Shown in pieces: positions 18,013 to 58,249 of a stretch of 58,249 bases of DNA; position 1 is the first letter of the stretch, and the number at the start of each line of letters is the position of its first letter. Origin of the DNA: Alphaproteobacteria bacterium (GTDB lineage: Bacteria; Pseudomonadota; Alphaproteobacteria; RF32; CAG-239); contig JAGCXO010000032.1 of the NCBI GenBank assembly GCA_017961285.1, positions 1 through 58,249 on the forward strand. The letters run 5' to 3'. The position numbers and the translations under genes are program-made. A model generated the notes under the pieces. That model had not been told where the DNA came from, searched no databases, and saw nothing but the letters and a program-made list of their open reading frames with translations.

Positions 18013-18034
18013 TTTTCTCTCCTTATAAGAAAAA

Positions 18035-18430
18035 CAGGCAGCCTGTAAGCCGGGTTCTGTATTCCACTATCTTTGCGCAGCAAAGGTTGGAATGATAGTC
18101 ATTCATCTTGGCGAAACATTGCTGCAACGCTCATCGCGACCTACCTCTGGAGTGGAGTGGAAACGCCCCATGTAACTTTTATTAAAAAAGCTCTCCTAAC
18201 TTGGTCTTGCTTCAAACAGGGTTTACCTATGCCAAAATTATTGCTAATTTTGCGGTGAGCTCTTACCTAGCCTTTTCAACCTTACCAAAGCAGTGTTTGG
18301 CGGTAATTTTCTGCGGCACTTTCCCTTGGATTGCTCCAGCCAGACGTTATCTGGTGTTTTGTTTCCATAAAGCCCGGACTTTCCTCATCCGCGGATTTTA
18401 CCTTCCGTAATGCGACTATCCGGCTGCCTG
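18035..18430 (-). ncRNA. rnpB: RNase P RNA, class A
   Basis: Minus strand: CAGGCAGCCGGAUAGUCGC..GAGGAAAGUCCGGGC..ACAGAACCCGGCUUACAGGCUGCCUG; the ends pair to form P1. Confidence 0.96.
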
Positions 18431-18590
18431 TGTATAAAATTAGTATATTCACAAGGAAAAGCAAGAAAATTTTTGTTTTTTATAAAAAAAATATCATTTT
18501 CTTGTATCCCTTTGTGTGCATGACTTTGAAGAGTGTTTTGCTCGTAAAAATACAGAACAAACAAAGAACATCGAGAAAAAAACTAAAATT

Positions 18591-38412: not shown

Positions 38413-38670
38413 ATGAAGAAGATTGAATTGGCGGTATTACTTGCTTTTGTGATGTTTGCAAAATCGGCAAGTGCAAATTGTTATATGATAAATGACAGTG
38501 ATGCCAAAAATCTTTGTTTGGCGCGTGAAAATAACAGTGCAACATATTGCTATATGATTAATGACGAGGATAATAAAAACTTTTGTTTGGCAACCGTCAA
38601 TCACAGCCAAACATATTGTTATATGATTAACGATAACGATAAAAAGAACTTCTGTCTGTCGTCGTTCTAG
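38413..38670 (+). CDS. Small secreted protein with three CYMINDxDxKNxCL repeats
   Basis: Signal peptide, then 23-aa tandem repeats with 6 Cys. Confidence 0.75.
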   Translation: MKKIELAVLLAFVMFAKSASANCYMINDSDAKNLCLARENNSATYCYMINDEDNKNFCLATVNHSQTYCYMINDNDKKNFCLSSF

Positions 38671-39560: not shown

Positions 39561-39600
39561 AACAAAAAACTCCGGCGAGAATGTCGGAGTTTTTTGATTT
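39561..39600. repeat. Copy A of a 40-bp terminator direct repeat
   Basis: aacAAAAAACTCCGGCgAGAATGTCGGAGTTTTTTgattt; matches 40452-40492 with one substitution and one indel. Confidence 0.92.
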
Positions 39601-39616
39601 TAATACCCTGTTAAGG

Positions 39617-40000
39617 TTACTTTTCACAAATTGGAGTCACAAAGTAGTTTGTTTGTGCTGCTTCTCTGATTGCTCCTGTGCCTAACCAATCTACCACTCC
39701 TACAGTAACTACACAAAAATCTATAAGGCAACCCAAAAACGTTGTTGCATCTATTTTTGTTTCTACATGTCTTACTGAATCTCGGCATCCTTTTTTTGAG
39801 GCTCTTATTGTGACATTATCTGCCAATTTTTTCTTGGATATTGTTGCTACTCCTGCTCCCGTTCCGGCATATTCTTCCCCAATATAAATCTTTGCATCTC
39901 TGTCTTCTGATTGGACAATAATTGTCTCTTTTGTACCTGAGAACATTGAAGCACACCCTGAAAGCATCAATATTGCAGTTACAATGTATATTTTTTTCAT
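39617..40000 (-). CDS. Small lipoprotein (PEGA-like)
   Basis: MKKIYIVTAILMLSGC lipobox; AGGAG SD. Confidence 0.8.
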   Translation of the reverse strand: MKKIYIVTAILMLSGCASMFSGTKETIIVQSEDRDAKIYIGEEYAGTGAGVATISKKKLADNVTIRASKKGCRDSVRHVETKIDATTFLGCLIDFCVVTVGVVDWLGTGAIREAAQTNYFVTPICEK

Positions 40001-40120
40001 AATTAGGCTCCTTGAGTTGATATATTTAATATTTGCAAGACAGGAAAATGAAGTAAAATTTTATTTTTTTGTTGAACTAAAAATAGTATTAGTCATAATC
40101 CGATACCCTGTCTTTAGTTA

Positions 40121-40335
40121 AAGAAAAACCCACTTTCAAAGAAAGCGGGCGGATGTTCGAAAACCGTAAATCTAATAAGTAAAAAACGGCTCGGCTTATT
40201 CAGCTCATGGCCTTATTCAGCCGACATCCGTCCAAGACAGAAGTCGGCATATTTTTTAAAGTCGCTTATGCATATAGCGACTACTTATTAGATTTAAAGG
40301 GTTTCGATGCCCTAGATATGGTCTCCCATACCTAC
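40121..40335 (-). ncRNA. Candidate structured ncRNA/attenuator, element 1
   Basis: GAGA-loop hairpin; 15-bp perfect closing stem (40167-40181/40282-40296) extended by TCGAAA/TTTTCGA; internal hairpins; terminator at 40124-40149; no ORF. Confidence 0.6.
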
Positions 40336-40340
40336 TAATC

Positions 40341-40369
40341 ACTTTAGATAATAATCATTACTTTGTCAA
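40341..40369 (-). promoter_or_regulatory. Sigma70-like promoter of element 1
   Basis: TTGACA-N17-TAAAGT. Confidence 0.65.
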
Positions 40370-40451: not shown

Positions 40452-40492
40452 AACAAAAAAACTCCGGCAAGAATGTCGGAGTTTTTTGATTT
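40452..40492. terminator. rpsI terminator (copy B of the direct repeat)
   Basis: AAAAAACTCCGGC-aagaat-GTCGGAGTTTTTT, 15 nt downstream of the rpsI stop. Confidence 0.9.
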
Positions 40493-41595: not shown

Positions 41596-41994
41596 TTATT
41601 TACAGGTGTATATCAAATAACGACTATACGAAAAAGCTCCGCCGCCGAAAGCACTGGTATTGAAAGATGTTTGAGATTTGCCGAAACCTTGCGCTGATGC
41701 TCCGTTAGGGAAAATTCCGGCTTGTGCATTGATATTCGTGTTGGTATCTACATTTCCAAAAATCTGATTACCATTCAAAAAGCCGTTTGCCTGCTCGTTT
41801 GCCACAATAACATCAAACCCCATCGGGCAAGTTTTTCCGGCAAGGCGTAAGCAGTCTCCCATATTCAAAGTTTTTAAGTTGCCGCCGCAATCCGCCTGAT
41901 AGACTGTTTGTCCTTTTTCGTTGGTATATAAAATTCTGTTGCTGGTGCAAGCGGATAAGATAATAAAAAATGCAAGGACTAAAAATTTTTTCAT
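41596..41994 (-). CDS. Small lipoprotein of a prophage-associated type
   Basis: MKKFLVLAFFIILSAC lipobox with GAGG SD; VYQADCGG..DCLRLAGKTCPMGFDVI. Confidence 0.75.
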   Translation of the reverse strand: MKKFLVLAFFIILSACTSNRILYTNEKGQTVYQADCGGNLKTLNMGDCLRLAGKTCPMGFDVIVANEQANGFLNGNQIFGNVDTNTNINAQAGIFPNGASAQGFGKSQTSFNTSAFGGGAFSYSRYLIYTCK

Positions 41995-42022: not shown

Positions 42023-42266
42023 TAAAAAATACCGCCTTGCAAAAGGCGGTCGGAGAGTTCGAAAATCATATTTCGCAAAATGACTCTTTTAGCCTTTAGA
42101 AAACAAGTTTCCTGGACATACGCTAAAAGCTCCCCGACCTTTATCGGGGATAATTGTTGTTTTTCAAAAAACAACTGACGATGCTATCCAACACCGTGCG
42201 AAATAAGAGCTTTCGACAGCCCCGCACCTTTGCAGGCGCTGGCTTGTTTTGTTACAAAGCAAGCTT
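42023..42266 (-). ncRNA. Candidate structured ncRNA/attenuator, element 2
   Basis: GCAA-loop hairpin; closing stem TCGAAA..TATTTCGCA / TGCGAAATA..TTTTCGA; three internal hairpins; terminator ACCGCCTT-ttgc-AAGGCGGT plus U-tract. Confidence 0.55.
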
Positions 42267-42272
42267 GTTTGA

Positions 42273-42301
42273 AGTTTATGTGTATTTAATATCAAAGTCA
42301 A
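42273..42301 (-). promoter_or_regulatory. Sigma70-like promoter of element 2
   Basis: TTGACT-N17-TAAACT. Confidence 0.65.
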
Positions 42302-42673: not shown

Positions 42674-42950
42674 TTGGCCCTTTGTTGGCAATATTTTGGT
42701 ATTGGGCACTTTGAAAATCTGGTTGTCCAGACATCGCATCTAAATTAGCTACCTGTCCGTTATTATTATGCAATCCCAAATTTTGCCCATCAAAAGTCAT
42801 ATAACAGTTTGGATCATTAGATGTTGGTTGCAGTTGACTTGACGTCTGCATATTCTTAATATTGCTTCCGATATTAGAAGTTCCAAAGCCGTAGTTATTA
42901 TCCGCATTAGTTCCCCAAAAGTTGGTTGTATACTGTGGATAGTTTGTCAT
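42639..42950 (-). pseudogene. Orphan toxin-tip cassette: shared repeat plus truncated DUF2778/Tlde1-like domain
   Basis: First 36 aa duplicate part of 43193-44017; then YMTFDGQNL..AMSGQPDFQSAQYQNIANKGP, truncated at the GP motif; ATGA overlap with the upstream gene. Confidence 0.65.
42843..42942. repeat. 100-bp direct repeat, copy 2
   Basis: 98/100 identical to 43739-43838. Confidence 0.97.
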
Positions 42951-43126
42951 TCCATCATTCGCAGTTCAACCCACGTTTGTTTACACCAATCTTTCGTTTT
43001 TCCTGATAATATACATTCATTAACATATTCATGTTTTAGATAGACTTCAAATAGAAACAGTAATACTAAATAAATTACAGGTATTGCTAATACGACAAGT
43101 AAGCTCTTAAAAATTTTCTTTTTCAT
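42947..43126 (-). CDS. Small single-TM protein, putative immunity protein
   Basis: MKKKIFKSLLVVLAIPVIYLVLLFLF..ECILSGKTKDWCK; GAGGG SD; directly follows the putative toxin gene. Confidence 0.6.
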   Translation of the reverse strand: MKKKIFKSLLVVLAIPVIYLVLLFLFEVYLKHEYVNECILSGKTKDWCKQTWVELRMME

Positions 43127-43192: not shown

Positions 43193-44017
43193 TTATTTAA
43201 TGCCTAGCTTTCGCATATTTGGCGTTCTTCTATCATCAAGTAAATCCTCGCAACTTGTATTCGGATTATAATATCCTAGATTACTACCATAAAGATTATT
43301 TTGCAAATCTTTTTGACTATCTTCCATGATTTCATCATGACTCTGTCCTGTAATTCTTTTAACTGGATAATCCATAAGGTATTCTTTAGCATAGCCAAGT
43401 GCTATACCATTTCTTCTGCTCTTAGGACTAATTTTGGCAAGTTCACACTGCAAAAGAGGATGATAATAATTATCTATATCCGCACCTTGACCGGAGCCAA
43501 AAGTTTTTACGAGTTGGTTTCCTGTTTGTTTCATTTTTTTCCAATAATCATATGCTATTTTTGTATCAGCCGCTAGTTCTCCTAAATTTTCTCTAGCTTT
43601 CCTAATTTGTTCCGGTATAGACATTATACCATTTACAGCGGTATTTCCCCACTGTTTAACCGTATTCCAAGCACTGCTTTCCGGTTGTTGAGAAACCTGA
43701 GGTTGAACAGGTTGAGGTTGTTGCGGAACAGGTGCCATCGTCTGCATATTCTTAATATTGCTTCCGATATTAGAAGTTCCAAAGCCGTAGTTATTATCCG
43801 CATTAGTTCTCCAAAAGTTGGTTGTATACTGCGGATAGGTCGTTATCCCCTGATTATTCATCTTCGTCATCAGGTCATTTTCTCGGTTAACTCGTGCCGT
43901 TTGATATGCTAACTCATCACGCGTCGTAAACCCAGAGTGATCAACACCATAGGTGTCAATCGGATTACCGTTGCTTGCATACCCCAACGGCGAGGTGTAC
44001 TGTTTCCAAAAGCTCAT
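43193..44017 (-). CDS. Putative polymorphic toxin: novel N-terminal domain, P/Q linker, serum-amyloid-A-like tip
   Basis: GGAGGT SD; GADIDNYYH..CELAK..AKE..DSQKDLQNNLYG resembles SAA GADKYFH..DAAQ..ARE..DSLADQAANEWG. Confidence 0.6.
   Translation of the reverse strand: MSFWKQYTSPLGYASNGNPIDTYGVDHSGFTTRDELAYQTARVNRENDLMTKMNNQGITTYPQYTTNFWRTNADNNYGFGTSNIGSNIKNMQTMAPVPQQPQPVQPQVSQQPESSAWNTVKQWGNTAVNGIMSIPEQIRKARENLGELAADTKIAYDYWKKMKQTGNQLVKTFGSGQGADIDNYYHPLLQCELAKISPKSRRNGIALGYAKEYLMDYPVKRITGQSHDEIMEDSQKDLQNNLYGSNLGYYNPNTSCEDLLDDRRTPNMRKLGIK
43739..43838. repeat. 100-bp direct repeat, copy 1
   Basis: Encodes YPQYTTNFWRTNADNNYGFGTSNIGSNIKNMQT. Confidence 0.97.
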
Positions 44018-57591: not shown

Positions 57592-57667
57592 GGGCCCGTA
57601 GCTCAGTCGGTAGAGCATTTGACTTTTAATCAAAGGGTCGTGGGTTCGAATCCCGCCGGGCTCACCA
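57592..57667 (+). tRNA. tRNA-Lys(UUU)
   Basis: 76-nt cloverleaf, anticodon loop CTTTTAA, GTTCGAATC T-loop, encoded CCA. Confidence 0.97.
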
Positions 57668-57672
57668 ATAGG

Positions 57673-57700
57673 AAAACTCCTCTTTATGAGGAGTTTTTTT
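57673..57700 (+). terminator. tRNA-Lys terminator
   Basis: AAAACTCCTC-tttat-GAGGAGTTTTTTT. Confidence 0.85.
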
Positions 57701-57849
57701 GTATCTTTTTCTTGGCGGGATTCGAACCCGAGGGTTCGTTCAATTCCGACTATTTCTTTTGTTTCGCTTCGTTTTCTCTTGCTCACAAAAGAAAGTCTCA
57801 TTGTGTCTCCTTGAAAAAACTGCATTAAAGCAGTTTTTGCCGCGGCCAT

Positions 57850-57897
57850 CCGCCGGGCTCACCAATAAAAAAACTCCTCCTTGTGGGGAGTTTTTTT
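57850..57897 (+). repeat. Second copy of the tRNA-Lys 3' end plus terminator
   Basis: CCGCCGGGCTCACCAATA (18/18 with 57653-57670), then an AAACTCC..GGAGTTT hairpin. Confidence 0.92.
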
Positions 57898-58016
57898 GTT
57901 GGTCAAGTTGGGATAAGAACCCACGAAAAAGTGGGTTCGACAAGGAGGAGCAGGCGAGACGGAAGTATCGCCGCTCTTGCGACGACGCAGCGGCGAGTGA
58001 AACGTAGCCAATCATA

Positions 58017-58062
58017 GCCGGGCTCACCAATAAAAGAGGTCACCTTTGTGGTGGCCTTTTTT
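58017..58062 (+). repeat. Third copy of the tRNA-Lys 3' end plus terminator
   Basis: GCCGGGCTCACCAATA (16/16), then AGGTCACC/GGTGGCCT hairpin and T-tract. Confidence 0.9.
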
Positions 58063-58249
58063 GTGTTTTAAAACGGCGGGCTTCAAAATAAGAGACAAAA
58101 AATGACAAAAATATCGTATCATGAGTGGGAAAATGTGGTATAGTGTAATTCCTGATAATTAGTATAGAAATTTTTTTAATTATATCCTGTCGCCTTGGGC
58201 AAGTTACATAAAAGGATTCACGCCCCAAAAAAAATAAAAAAAATAAAAA

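What the first reader, a model, noticed from the sequence alone, without database searches (positions are those of the whole stretch)
40121..40369. ORF-less promoter, multibranch RNA and terminator unit (element 1)
Seen: TTGACA-N17-TAAAGT; a 9-bp hairpin with GAGA tetraloop; a closing stem with 15 perfect bp (40167-40181/40282-40296) extended by TCGAAA/TTTTCGA; internal hairpins AGTCGCT/AGCGACT, GCCGAC/GTCGGC and CGGCT/AGCCG; then a terminator. About 210 nt with no coding capacity. It does not look like tRNA, tmRNA, SRP or 6S. Inference: a small RNA or attenuator, possibly related to phage P1 c4 / P4 CI immunity RNAs.
Basis: partly seen in the sequence, partly recalled or inferred. Interest (0 to 1): 0.75.

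Follow-up and report, generated by a model that had tools for sequence, protein, structure and literature searches.

The report
Switch-like leader RNA before lipoprotein gene
The flagged stretch is a real, about 213-base folded RNA leader with its own promoter and stop signal, one copy of a large uncatalogued family that sits in front of surface-protein genes in small-genome gut Alphaproteobacteria and appears built to switch those genes on or off.

Summary
On the minus strand lie a TTGACA-N17-TAAAGT promoter, a 9-bp GAGA hairpin, a multibranch core closed by a 15-bp perfect stem, and an intrinsic terminator. The fold is far better than chance (z = -7.8).

It is not a singleton. A covariance model finds it in 124 of 151 genomes of the same family, at 1 to 19 or more copies per genome. 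It is rare elsewhere in the class. Across 98 distinct copies, 95% of cells pair and 29 of 39 pairs show compensatory changes.

Copies sit upstream of lipoprotein, pilin-like, autotransporter, outer-membrane, kinase and glycosyltransferase genes.

One segment (GGACGGAUGUCGGC) can pair with either of two partners:
- upstream, in hairpin P3, which leaves the terminator and an anti-Shine-Dalgarno sequence free;
- downstream, forming a three-way junction that hides both.

The junction fold scores 31-37.5 bits against sRNA-Xcc1 in all eight other main-type copies scanned (cut-off 53). It scores about 26-28 bits against phage C4 in two of them (cut-off 45).

The trigger is unknown, and computed energies favour the terminating fold. 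This window's copy has lost the Shine-Dalgarno pairing. No Rfam family reaches threshold. Earlier reports of this scan describe the same family.

The parts
40341..40369 (-). Promoter-like site: -35 TTGACA (40369-40364), 17-nt spacer, -10 TAAAGT (40346-40341)
   Evidence: 10 of 12 matches. In other copies the -10 hexamer typically ends 22-29 nt before the conserved core. That places the transcription start just 5' of the P0 hairpin.
40313..40334 (-). P0: 5'-terminal hairpin, 9 bp with a GAGA loop. Its sequence varies between copies.
   Evidence: A hairpin of at least 6 bp occupies this position in 90% of 94 copies (mean -6.4 against -2.4 kcal/mol for shuffles).
40144..40314 (-). Conserved structured core, the match to covariance model R1
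   Evidence: 130.7 bits, E = 1e-26. Covariation across 98 distinct copies.
40300..40307 (-). P1b 5' strand UCGAAACC, pairing with GGUUUUCGA at 40157-40165
   Evidence: three P1b pairs switch between G-C, A-U and C-G in 24-42 of 98 sequences.
40282..40296 (-). P1c 5' strand: 15 perfect bp with 40167-40181. The sequence is hypervariable, a 'barcode' helix.
   Evidence: All nine model pairs of P1c show compensatory changes.
40261..40281 (-). P2 hairpin GUCGCU / AGCGAC. Its loop, AUAUGCAUA, can pair with UAUGC at 40247-40251 to form a pseudoknot.
   Evidence: loop-target pair U-A 68, C-G 14; longest helix with own target 4.52 against 4.12 +/- 0.07 when targets are swapped.
40220..40248 (-). P3 hairpin. 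The 5' strand is GCCGACUUCUGUC. The 3' strand, GGACGGAUGUCGGC (40233-40220), is the shared 'switch' strand and mimics the Shine-Dalgarno sequence.
   Evidence: P3 covariation; alternative partners.
40202..40212 (-). P4 hairpin GGC-CAUGA-GCU, flanked by invariant GAAUAA and (A/G)AAUAA
   Evidence: G-C changes to A-U and C-G to U-A.
40186..40201 (-). J4/1, GAAUAAGCCGAGCCGU. GCCGA pairs with UCGGC of the switch strand (helix B2). CCGU pairs with ACGG at 40164-40167 (helix P5).
   Evidence: P5 pair G-C 82, A-U 10; B2 99.6% paired with A-U compensations.
40147..40158 (-). Anti-Shine-Dalgarno GAACAUCC, overlapping CAUCCGCCC (the 3' strand of helix B1). Its last CCC is the base of the terminator stem.
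40124..40150 (-). Intrinsic terminator: 10-bp stem, 3-nt loop, then UUUUU
   Evidence: A terminator-like hairpin plus T-run is found in 93 of 97 copies.
40100..40112 (-). Degenerate relic of the family's Shine-Dalgarno region: GACAGGGUAUCGG here against GGACAGGAUGUUCGG in the closest full-length copy
   Evidence: Followed by an 11-codon ORF at 40061-40096.
39617..40000 (-). Downstream gene: a 127-aa lipoprotein (MKK...LSGC) with its own Shine-Dalgarno sequence AAGGAG at 40008-40013
   Evidence: About 30% identical to lipoproteins that follow other copies of the leader. No Pfam match.
40456..40492 (.). Terminator hairpin of rplM-rpsI. A 97% identical copy lies at 39564-39600, so the pair brackets the RNA-plus-lipoprotein unit.
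   Evidence: (repeat family D4), (rpsI and rplM confirmed by Pfam).
42023..42301 (-). Element 2: a divergent paralogue of the leader, upstream of lipoprotein 41596-41994
   Evidence: R1 29 bits, E = 4e-5. It keeps all helices of both folds with different letters.

Best explanation
The element is a bona fide member of a large family of cis-acting 5' leader RNAs of small-genome gut Alphaproteobacteria. The family is not catalogued in Rfam.

Transcription starts at the element's own promoter, and the RNA begins with a stabilising hairpin (P0). The core can then adopt two folds.

- Fold A is the ground state and the 'off' state. The 5' half pairs with the 3' half through P1b, the P1c 'barcode' helix and P3. 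This leaves ...GAACAUCCGCCCGCC... free, so the intrinsic terminator forms. In typical copies GAACAUCC can also pair with the downstream Shine-Dalgarno region AAGGAUGUUC.
- Fold B is the 'on' state. The 3' strand of P3 (GGACGGAUGUCGGC) instead pairs downstream with GCCGA (B2) and CAUCCGCCC (B1). Together with P5 this forms a three-way junction like sRNA-Xcc1 or phage C4 RNA. The junction hides both the base of the terminator and the anti-Shine-Dalgarno sequence.

Something that disfavours P3 is inferred to tip the choice. It could be a protein, a ligand, an RNA, processing, or the P2-loop pseudoknot on AUGCC. What it is remains unknown.

In this window the promoter, core and terminator are intact, but the cognate Shine-Dalgarno sequence has decayed. 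Here the unit can only act as a transcription attenuator, or as the source of a roughly 213-nt terminated RNA, ahead of the lipoprotein gene.
For: SHOWN
- The anatomy is in the sequence.
- Family membership: 130.7 bits to model R1. The own genome holds four copies.
- Distribution: 124 of 151 genomes of the family, 20 of 23 genera, 1 to 19 or more copies. Only 9 of 201 genomes across the class.
- Fold A covaries: 95.3% of cells paired against 80.6% in shuffles, 29 of 39 pairs compensated, 25-53% paired when partners are slid.
- Fold B helices and pseudoknots also covary: 24 of 35 pairs compensated. The P5 pair is G-C 82 and A-U 10. B2 is 99.6% paired.
- One copy changes all three partner strands together: GCUGAC, GUCAGC, GGCUGAG.
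- 5'-truncated copies keep B2 through A-U compensation.
- Divergent paralogues keep the three-partner logic with other letters. In the C8 copy these are GACCGGAAG, CUUCCGGUC and Shine-Dalgarno GGAAGU. In element 2 they are UCGGGGAG, CUCUCCGA and Shine-Dalgarno GAGAGGUUGAA. Cognate duplexes reach -17 to -20 kcal/mol against -7 to -11 for non-cognate pairs.
- GGAUGC Shine-Dalgarno variants occur only where the anti-Shine-Dalgarno sequence reads AGCAUCC.
- A gene follows on the same strand in 85 of 102 copies, mostly envelope or secreted proteins.
- The terminator is present in 93 of 97 copies and the P0 hairpin in 90%.
- Fold B aligns full-length to sRNA-Xcc1 in the window copy and in all eight other main-type copies scanned.

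INFERRED: that the two folds are used as a regulated switch, and its direction.
Against:
- Nested-model energies put Fold A ahead of Fold B by a median of 21 kcal/mol over 91 copies, and by about 20-26 kcal/mol in this copy. Fold B therefore cannot be a spontaneous equilibrium partner. It needs a factor, a kinetic route, or pseudoknots that the energy model ignores.
- Most B1 positions are invariant, so support for B1 rests on a few divergent copies.
- Alignment A3 was fitted to the Fold A structure, which inflates pair counts somewhat.
- In this window's copy the lipoprotein Shine-Dalgarno sequence pairs with the anti-Shine-Dalgarno sequence at only -4.6 kcal/mol, and it lies about 110 nt after the terminator's T-run.
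- The promoter consensus scan is barely better than shuffles in this AT-rich DNA.
Confidence: 0.7

Rival explanations
1. It is a trans-acting small RNA. The roughly 213-nt transcript that ends at the terminator would be the functional product. It exposes ACAUCCG between P1b and the terminator as a seed, and would repress mRNAs that carry the GGAUGU-type Shine-Dalgarno sequence. sRNA-Xcc1 is likewise described as a trans-acting sRNA.
For: The window copy has lost its cognate Shine-Dalgarno sequence, yet keeps promoter, core and terminator intact. Fold A, which is strongly favoured, terminates and leaves ACAUCCG unpaired. Some copies elsewhere have no gene behind them. The core resembles sRNA-Xcc1.
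Against: GGATGTT[CT] is not enriched in this genome: 84 sites against about 77 expected. Apart from the C36 copy's own cargo gene, only one gene (C42:6582) carries it as a Shine-Dalgarno sequence. In 85 of 102 copies a gene follows at a fixed short distance, and its Shine-Dalgarno sequence covaries with that copy's own anti-Shine-Dalgarno sequence. That points to action in cis.
Confidence: 0.13
2. It is a metabolite- or second-messenger-binding riboswitch. A small ligand would bind the junction (invariant GAAUAA / AAUAA, J2/3, the P2-loop pseudoknot) and stabilise one fold. That would coordinate a surface-protein regulon.
For: There are many copies per genome ahead of functionally diverse envelope genes. 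Unpaired nucleotides are invariant. The platform combines a terminator with Shine-Dalgarno sequestration. No CsrA gene is present to explain the GGA motifs.
Against: The divergent paralogues (element 2, the C8 copy) replace most 'junction' letters while keeping the helices. That is unusual for a ligand pocket. Much of the unpaired conservation is explained by the alternative pairings. The cargo genes suggest no candidate ligand.
Confidence: 0.1
3. It is a repeated DNA element (MITE- or REP-like) or a decaying relic with no RNA-level function. The 15-bp stem would then be a terminal inverted repeat.
For: It is multi-copy and patchy among close relatives. The unit here is bracketed by a duplicated 37-nt terminator. 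The cognate Shine-Dalgarno sequence has decayed in this copy.
Against: The helix sequences differ in nearly every copy yet stay complementary, and G-U pairs fit only the minus-strand RNA. Flanking direct repeats are not a family feature: 2 weak cases among 74 tested. Orientation relative to the downstream gene is fixed.
Confidence: 0.04

Closest known systems
sRNA-Xcc1 (Rfam RF02221), an 88-nt RNA of Xanthomonas campestris found in integron cassettes, upstream of symE
   Same: The 3' half of the element (40139-40233) aligns over the whole 87-position model: a closing stem, two hairpins, an AAUA-rich internal loop, UUU-GA before the 3' strand, and an RCC tail. The score is 30.7 bits here and 31-37.5 bits in all eight other main-type copies scanned. 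Like Xcc1, it lies upstream of a gene and in the same orientation (bioRxiv 10.1101/2025.06.18.660453, read).
   Different: The match is below the family cut-off of 53 bits. Here the junction is not a free-standing 88-nt RNA (PMC2996969). It is embedded about 110 nt into a 213-nt leader, whose 5' half pairs with it. Its 3' strand doubles as anti-Shine-Dalgarno sequence and as the base of the terminator. The host clade and the cargo genes also differ.
C4 antisense RNA of phages P1 and P7 (Rfam RF01695), immI operon
   Same: It is a three-way junction encoded upstream of, and on the same transcript as, the gene it controls. A hairpin loop is complementary to an upstream site on the same transcript: here the P5 loop pairs with the P1c 5' strand, as b' pairs with b1 in C4 (the C4 details are from my own knowledge). 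There is weak model similarity: 25.7-28.4 bits in 2 of 9 copies, with shared GCCG...CGGUUU.C.AAC.
   Different: The window copy gives no match, and the scores are below the cut-off of 45 bits. The loop 'barcode' has no complementary site near the downstream ribosome-binding site: -5.36 against -5.10 +/- 0.15 kcal/mol for swapped pairs. Repression here uses the closing-stem strand and an intrinsic terminator, not loop-target pairing. RNase P processing was not tested.
Terminator/antiterminator leaders with Shine-Dalgarno sequestration (riboswitch expression platforms, attenuators)
   Same: The layout is promoter, structured leader, intrinsic terminator, then ribosome-binding site and gene. One strand has two mutually exclusive partners. 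Control is dual, over both transcription and translation.
   Different: No sensor is known. There is no leader peptide, no T-box or RAT features, and no Rfam riboswitch match.

Membership tests
sRNA-Xcc1 (RF02221) | Scores at or above the Rfam gathering cut-off of 53 bits | tested here: not met
   30.7 bits for the window copy. 31-37.5 bits in eight other copies.
sRNA-Xcc1 (RF02221) | Closing stem enclosing two hairpins, followed by a C-rich, U-rich tail | tested here: met
   Full-length alignment to model positions 1-87 in the window copy and all eight other main-type copies scanned. The helices B1, B2 and P5 are kept by compensatory changes.
sRNA-Xcc1 (RF02221) | Free-standing transcript of about 88 nt, with its own start at the closing stem | tested here: not met
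   The only promoter-like site lies about 110 nt upstream of the junction, and the 5' half covaries with it. No transcript data were available.
C4 antisense RNA (RF01695) | Scores at or above the gathering cut-off of 45 bits | tested here: not met
   No match at E <= 10 in the window copy. 25.7 and 28.4 bits in 2 of 9 other copies.
C4 antisense RNA (RF01695) | Hairpin loops complementary to target sites at the downstream ribosome-binding site (a2/b2) | tested here: not met
   P5-loop barcode against its own downstream region gives -5.36 kcal/mol, against -5.10 +/- 0.15 when partners are swapped.
C4 antisense RNA (RF01695) | Hairpin loop complementary to an upstream site on the same transcript (a1/b1) | tested here: met
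   The P5 loop is the P1c 3' strand. It forms 15 perfect bp with 40282-40296, and all P1c pairs covary.
C4 antisense RNA (RF01695) | Maturation of the 5' end by RNase P | not testable with these tools
   Needs a cleavage assay or 5'-end mapping.
Transcription-attenuator leader | Promoter, leader, intrinsic terminator and same-strand gene, with a strand that can pair either in the terminator or elsewhere | tested here: met
   The CCC of CAUCCGCCC is shared by B1 and by the terminator stem.
Metabolite riboswitch | Specific ligand binding that shifts the fold | not testable with these tools
   No Rfam riboswitch match. Needs in-line probing.
CsrA-controlled leader | A CsrA protein in the genome, binding GGA motifs | tested here: not met
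   PF02599 is absent from the 92%-complete genome, while the control genomes give hits.

The most novel reading that the evidence does not exclude
The family would be a signal-responsive ON switch built from a domesticated C4 / sRNA-Xcc1-type phage or integron RNA, amplified to as many as about 20 copies per genome. It would form a post-transcriptional regulon for the variable surface repertoire of uncultured gut Alphaproteobacteria: lipoproteins, pilins, autotransporters, Opa-like porins, LicA-like kinases, glycosyltransferases and a methylase.

The trigger could be an undiscovered ligand or protein. Alternatively, terminated leaders could cross-repress each other's Shine-Dalgarno sequences, so that only some family members are expressed at a time.
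Probability: 0.13. Interest if true: 0.85.

Novelty: new variant of a known kind. Interest (0 to 1): 0.6.

Why it matters
If the two-fold model holds, one RNA design controls a large share of the cell-surface genes in a widespread but uncultured gut lineage, acting on both transcription termination and ribosome access.

It would also give a working mechanism, and an evolutionary link to phage C4 RNA, for the poorly understood sRNA-Xcc1 type of RNA.

The family offers more than 100 natural sequence variants with compensatory changes. That is ideal material for structure probing and for synthetic attenuators.

For this window specifically, the copy is an intact attenuator that has lost its translational arm. 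It shows how such leaders decay or are re-used.

Tried and rejected
1. Known Rfam family. Nothing at the gathering cut-offs in the window except RNase P RNA and a tRNA.

2. CsrA binding of the GGAUGU motifs. There is no CsrA gene.

3. C4-style loop-to-RBS targeting by the variable 'barcode'. There is no signal.

4. Mobile cassette with target duplication. The duplicated terminator is peculiar to this locus, and no flanking repeats appear in 72 of 74 other copies. The rpsI neighbourhood is not shared by other copies.

5. Trans regulon through the GGAUGUU Shine-Dalgarno sequence. The motif is not enriched in the genome.

6. Thermodynamic bistability. This is rejected as such: Fold A is favoured by about 20 kcal/mol in nested models.

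7. Promoter consensus as evidence. It is weak, with 73 real sequences against 61 shuffled ones reaching the same score. Only the fixed spacing to the core is informative.

8. RNAalifold on the raw MAFFT alignment. It gave a poor structure because the variable helices were misaligned. I replaced it with a hand-annotated covariance model.

9. RNA-seq evidence.

10. Literature. No paper describing this leader was found in two searches.

Full report
WHAT IS THERE

Reading the minus strand from 40369 downwards, the features are:
- a promoter-like site, TTGACA-N17-TAAAGT (40369-40341; 10 of 12 matches);
- a 9-bp hairpin with a GAGA loop (P0, 40334-40313);
- the conserved word UAGGGC;
- a long closing helix in two parts, P1b (UCGAAACC at 40300-40307 with GGUUUUCGA at 40157-40165) and P1c (15 perfect bp, 40282-40296 with 40167-40181);
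- three internal hairpins, P2 (40261-40281), P3 (40220-40248) and P4 (40202-40212);
- an intrinsic terminator (40150-40128 plus a U-run).

The strand folds to -85.5 kcal/mol, against -52.1 +/- 4.3 for shuffles (z = -7.8). The opposite strand folds less well.

One proviso applies.

Upstream on the same strand lie rplM and rpsI with their own terminator. Downstream lies a 127-aa lipoprotein gene (39617-40000).

IT IS A FAMILY

- BLASTN found a second copy in the same genome and copies in 24 of 61 relatives.
- A pattern scan of GTDB genomes hit 120 or more stretches. Nearly all are gut 'Alphaproteobacteria bacterium' MAGs from humans, rodents and ruminants. From memory, these 'Azospirillum sp. 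CAG/UMGS' bins are the GTDB RF32/CAG-239 group.
- I built a covariance model (R1) from 46 copies with a hand-annotated structure.
- R1 finds four copies in the own genome: C36 at 150.8 bits, this element at 130.7 bits, C8 at 51.3 bits, and window 42045-42223 at 29 bits.
- R1 also finds copies in 124 of 151 genomes of the family and in 20 of 23 genera, at 1 to 19 or more copies each.
- Across the class only 9 of 201 genomes have it. All nine have small genomes.

THE STRUCTURE IS SELECTED AT THE RNA LEVEL

On 98 distinct copies aligned to R1 (A3), 95.3% of cells form standard pairs, against 80.6 +/- 0.4% in shuffles. When the partners are slid, 25-53% pair. Of 39 pairs, 29 show changes on both sides.

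P1b switches as a block between GUCGAAAACC/GGUUUUCGAAC, GUCAGAAACC/GGUUUCUGAAC, CUAGAAAACC/GGUUUUCUAGC and others. P1c differs in nearly every copy yet stays complementary.

The alignment was fitted to this structure, which inflates the counts somewhat. The P1b result does not depend on that, because P1b lies between invariant anchors.

A SECOND, COMPETING FOLD

The Rfam model of sRNA-Xcc1 aligned to the 3' half in a different pairing. That fold has three helices:
- B1: GGACGGAUG with CAUCCGCCC.
- B2: UCGGC with GCCGA, extended over the invariant GAAUAA/AAUAA loop to P4.
- P5: CCGU with ACGG.

These helices are also kept by compensation:
- The P5 pair is G-C in 82 copies and A-U in 10.
- B2 is 99.6% paired, with A-U replacements.
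- A P2-loop pseudoknot onto (U)AUGC covaries (U-A 68, C-G 14).
- Overall, 24 of 35 pairs show changes on both sides.
- One copy changes all three strands together: GCUGAC, GUCAGC, GGCUGAG.
- Two 5'-truncated copies lack the P3 5' strand but keep B2 through an A-U change.

Two divergent paralogues in this same genome are the most telling. The C8 copy reads GACCGGAAG, CUUCCGGUC and Shine-Dalgarno AAGGAAGU. Element 2 reads UCGGGGAG, CUCUCCGA and Shine-Dalgarno GAGAGGUUGAA. It also has its own P5, AGUCAU/AUGAUU.

Cognate 'mimic'-to-anti-Shine-Dalgarno duplexes score -17 to -20 kcal/mol, against -7 to -11 for non-cognate pairs. Anti-Shine-Dalgarno-to-Shine-Dalgarno duplexes are likewise cognate-specific. 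Within the main type, GGAUGC Shine-Dalgarno variants occur only in copies whose anti-Shine-Dalgarno sequence reads AGCAUCC.

HOW IT MOST LIKELY WORKS

What is shown:
- One strand (GGACGGAUGUCGGC) has two conserved partners.
- CAUCCGCCC overlaps the base of the terminator stem.
- GAACAUCC is complementary to the downstream Shine-Dalgarno region.
- Nearly every copy has a 5' hairpin (90%), a terminator (93 of 97) and a gene about 30 nt after the terminator.

What is inferred:
- Fold A (P1b, P1c, P3) lets the terminator form and lets the anti-Shine-Dalgarno sequence cover the ribosome-binding site. This is the off state.
- Fold B hides both. This is the on state.

Nested energy models favour Fold A by a median of 21 kcal/mol over 91 copies, and by about 20-26 kcal/mol in this copy. 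The default is therefore off. Switching on needs a factor, a co-transcriptional route, processing, or pseudoknots that the model cannot score. P1b and P1c may persist alongside Fold B.

The trigger is unknown. CsrA is excluded because the genome has no such gene.

WHAT IS CONTROLLED

Of 85 distinct downstream proteins, 30 have a lipobox and 14 have a prepilin-type N-terminus. Pfam finds:
- PEGA lipoproteins (11)
- APH-type kinases (5)
- autotransporters (4)
- Cthe_2159 (3)
- single cases of an Opacity/OMP barrel, Chlam_PMP, Stealth and GT2 transferases, PLD, and an EcoRI-type methylase.

This is an envelope and accessory set. By my own judgement it resembles the contingency genes of host-adapted bacteria.

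THIS COPY

The promoter, core and terminator are intact. After the terminator, however, the family's AAGGAUGUUC is degraded to GACAGGGUAUCGG, followed by an 11-codon ORF. The lipoprotein gene starts about 120 nt further on with its own AAGGAG.

That Shine-Dalgarno sequence pairs with the anti-Shine-Dalgarno sequence at only -4.6 kcal/mol. The lipoprotein is about 30% identical to lipoproteins behind other leaders.

So the unit still looks like leader plus cargo, but only the termination arm can act here. It may also yield a roughly 213-nt terminated RNA.

The RNA-plus-lipoprotein unit is bracketed by two 97% identical copies of the rpsI terminator. This is not a family trait.

COMPARISON WITH KNOWN RNAs

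No Rfam family reaches its cut-off. sRNA-Xcc1 matches full-length but below threshold in the window copy and all eight other main-type copies scanned (30.7-37.5 bits against 53). C4 matches weakly in two copies (25.7-28.4 bits against 45) and not in the window copy.

sRNA-Xcc1 is an 88-nt RNA (PMC2996969). It lies upstream of symE in integron cassettes (bioRxiv 10.1101/2025.06.18.660453).

The element works like a C4/Xcc1-type junction wired into an attenuator. It fails the membership tests for both families: the score, free-standing size, and loop-to-RBS targeting.

Earlier reports of this scan describe the same family in at least 20 other genomes, with the same closest relatives. I reached the two-fold reading before consulting them, and I tested their main claims here.

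LIMITS

- Two literature searches found no description of the family.
- The direction and the trigger of the switch are inferences.

Noticed in passing
window 42023-42301 (-): Element 2 is a divergent paralogue of the leader (R1 29 bits), upstream of a 132-aa lipoprotein (41596-41994). It keeps P1b, P1c, P3, B1, B2, P5 and the Shine-Dalgarno to anti-Shine-Dalgarno pairing, but with different letters.
   Followed up: partly
window 39564-39600 and 40456-40492: Two 97% identical copies of the bidirectional rpsI terminator bracket the 892-bp RNA-plus-lipoprotein unit. Such flanking repeats are not found around other copies of the leader.
   Followed up: partly
L090:88-212 and L092:2383-2517 (other genomes): These are 5'-truncated copies that keep only the Xcc1-like 3' half plus the terminator, with no gene behind them. 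Helix B2 is maintained by a G-C to A-U change. They may be free-standing small RNAs.
   Followed up: no
own genome C42, near 6582 (-): A lipoprotein gene carries the family-type Shine-Dalgarno sequence AAGGATGTTTTTTGATG but has no leader upstream. It may have lost its leader, or it may be a possible trans target.
   Followed up: no
window 57592-58064: A tRNA gene lies here. Three copies of a 50-nt repeat follow (a tRNA 3' end plus a terminator hairpin, 70-90% alike), spaced 165-197 nt apart. This suggests a small tRNA gene array.
   Followed up: no
window 38474-38661: Three tandem 69-nt repeats, 70-76% alike, lie inside a small ORF.
   Followed up: no
window 42843-42959 and 43739-43855: A 117-nt direct repeat, 93% identical, with copies 896 nt apart, lies within the gene array next to element 2.
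   Followed up: no
window 18030-18431 (-): Bacterial RNase P RNA, class A, at 263 bits.
   Followed up: no
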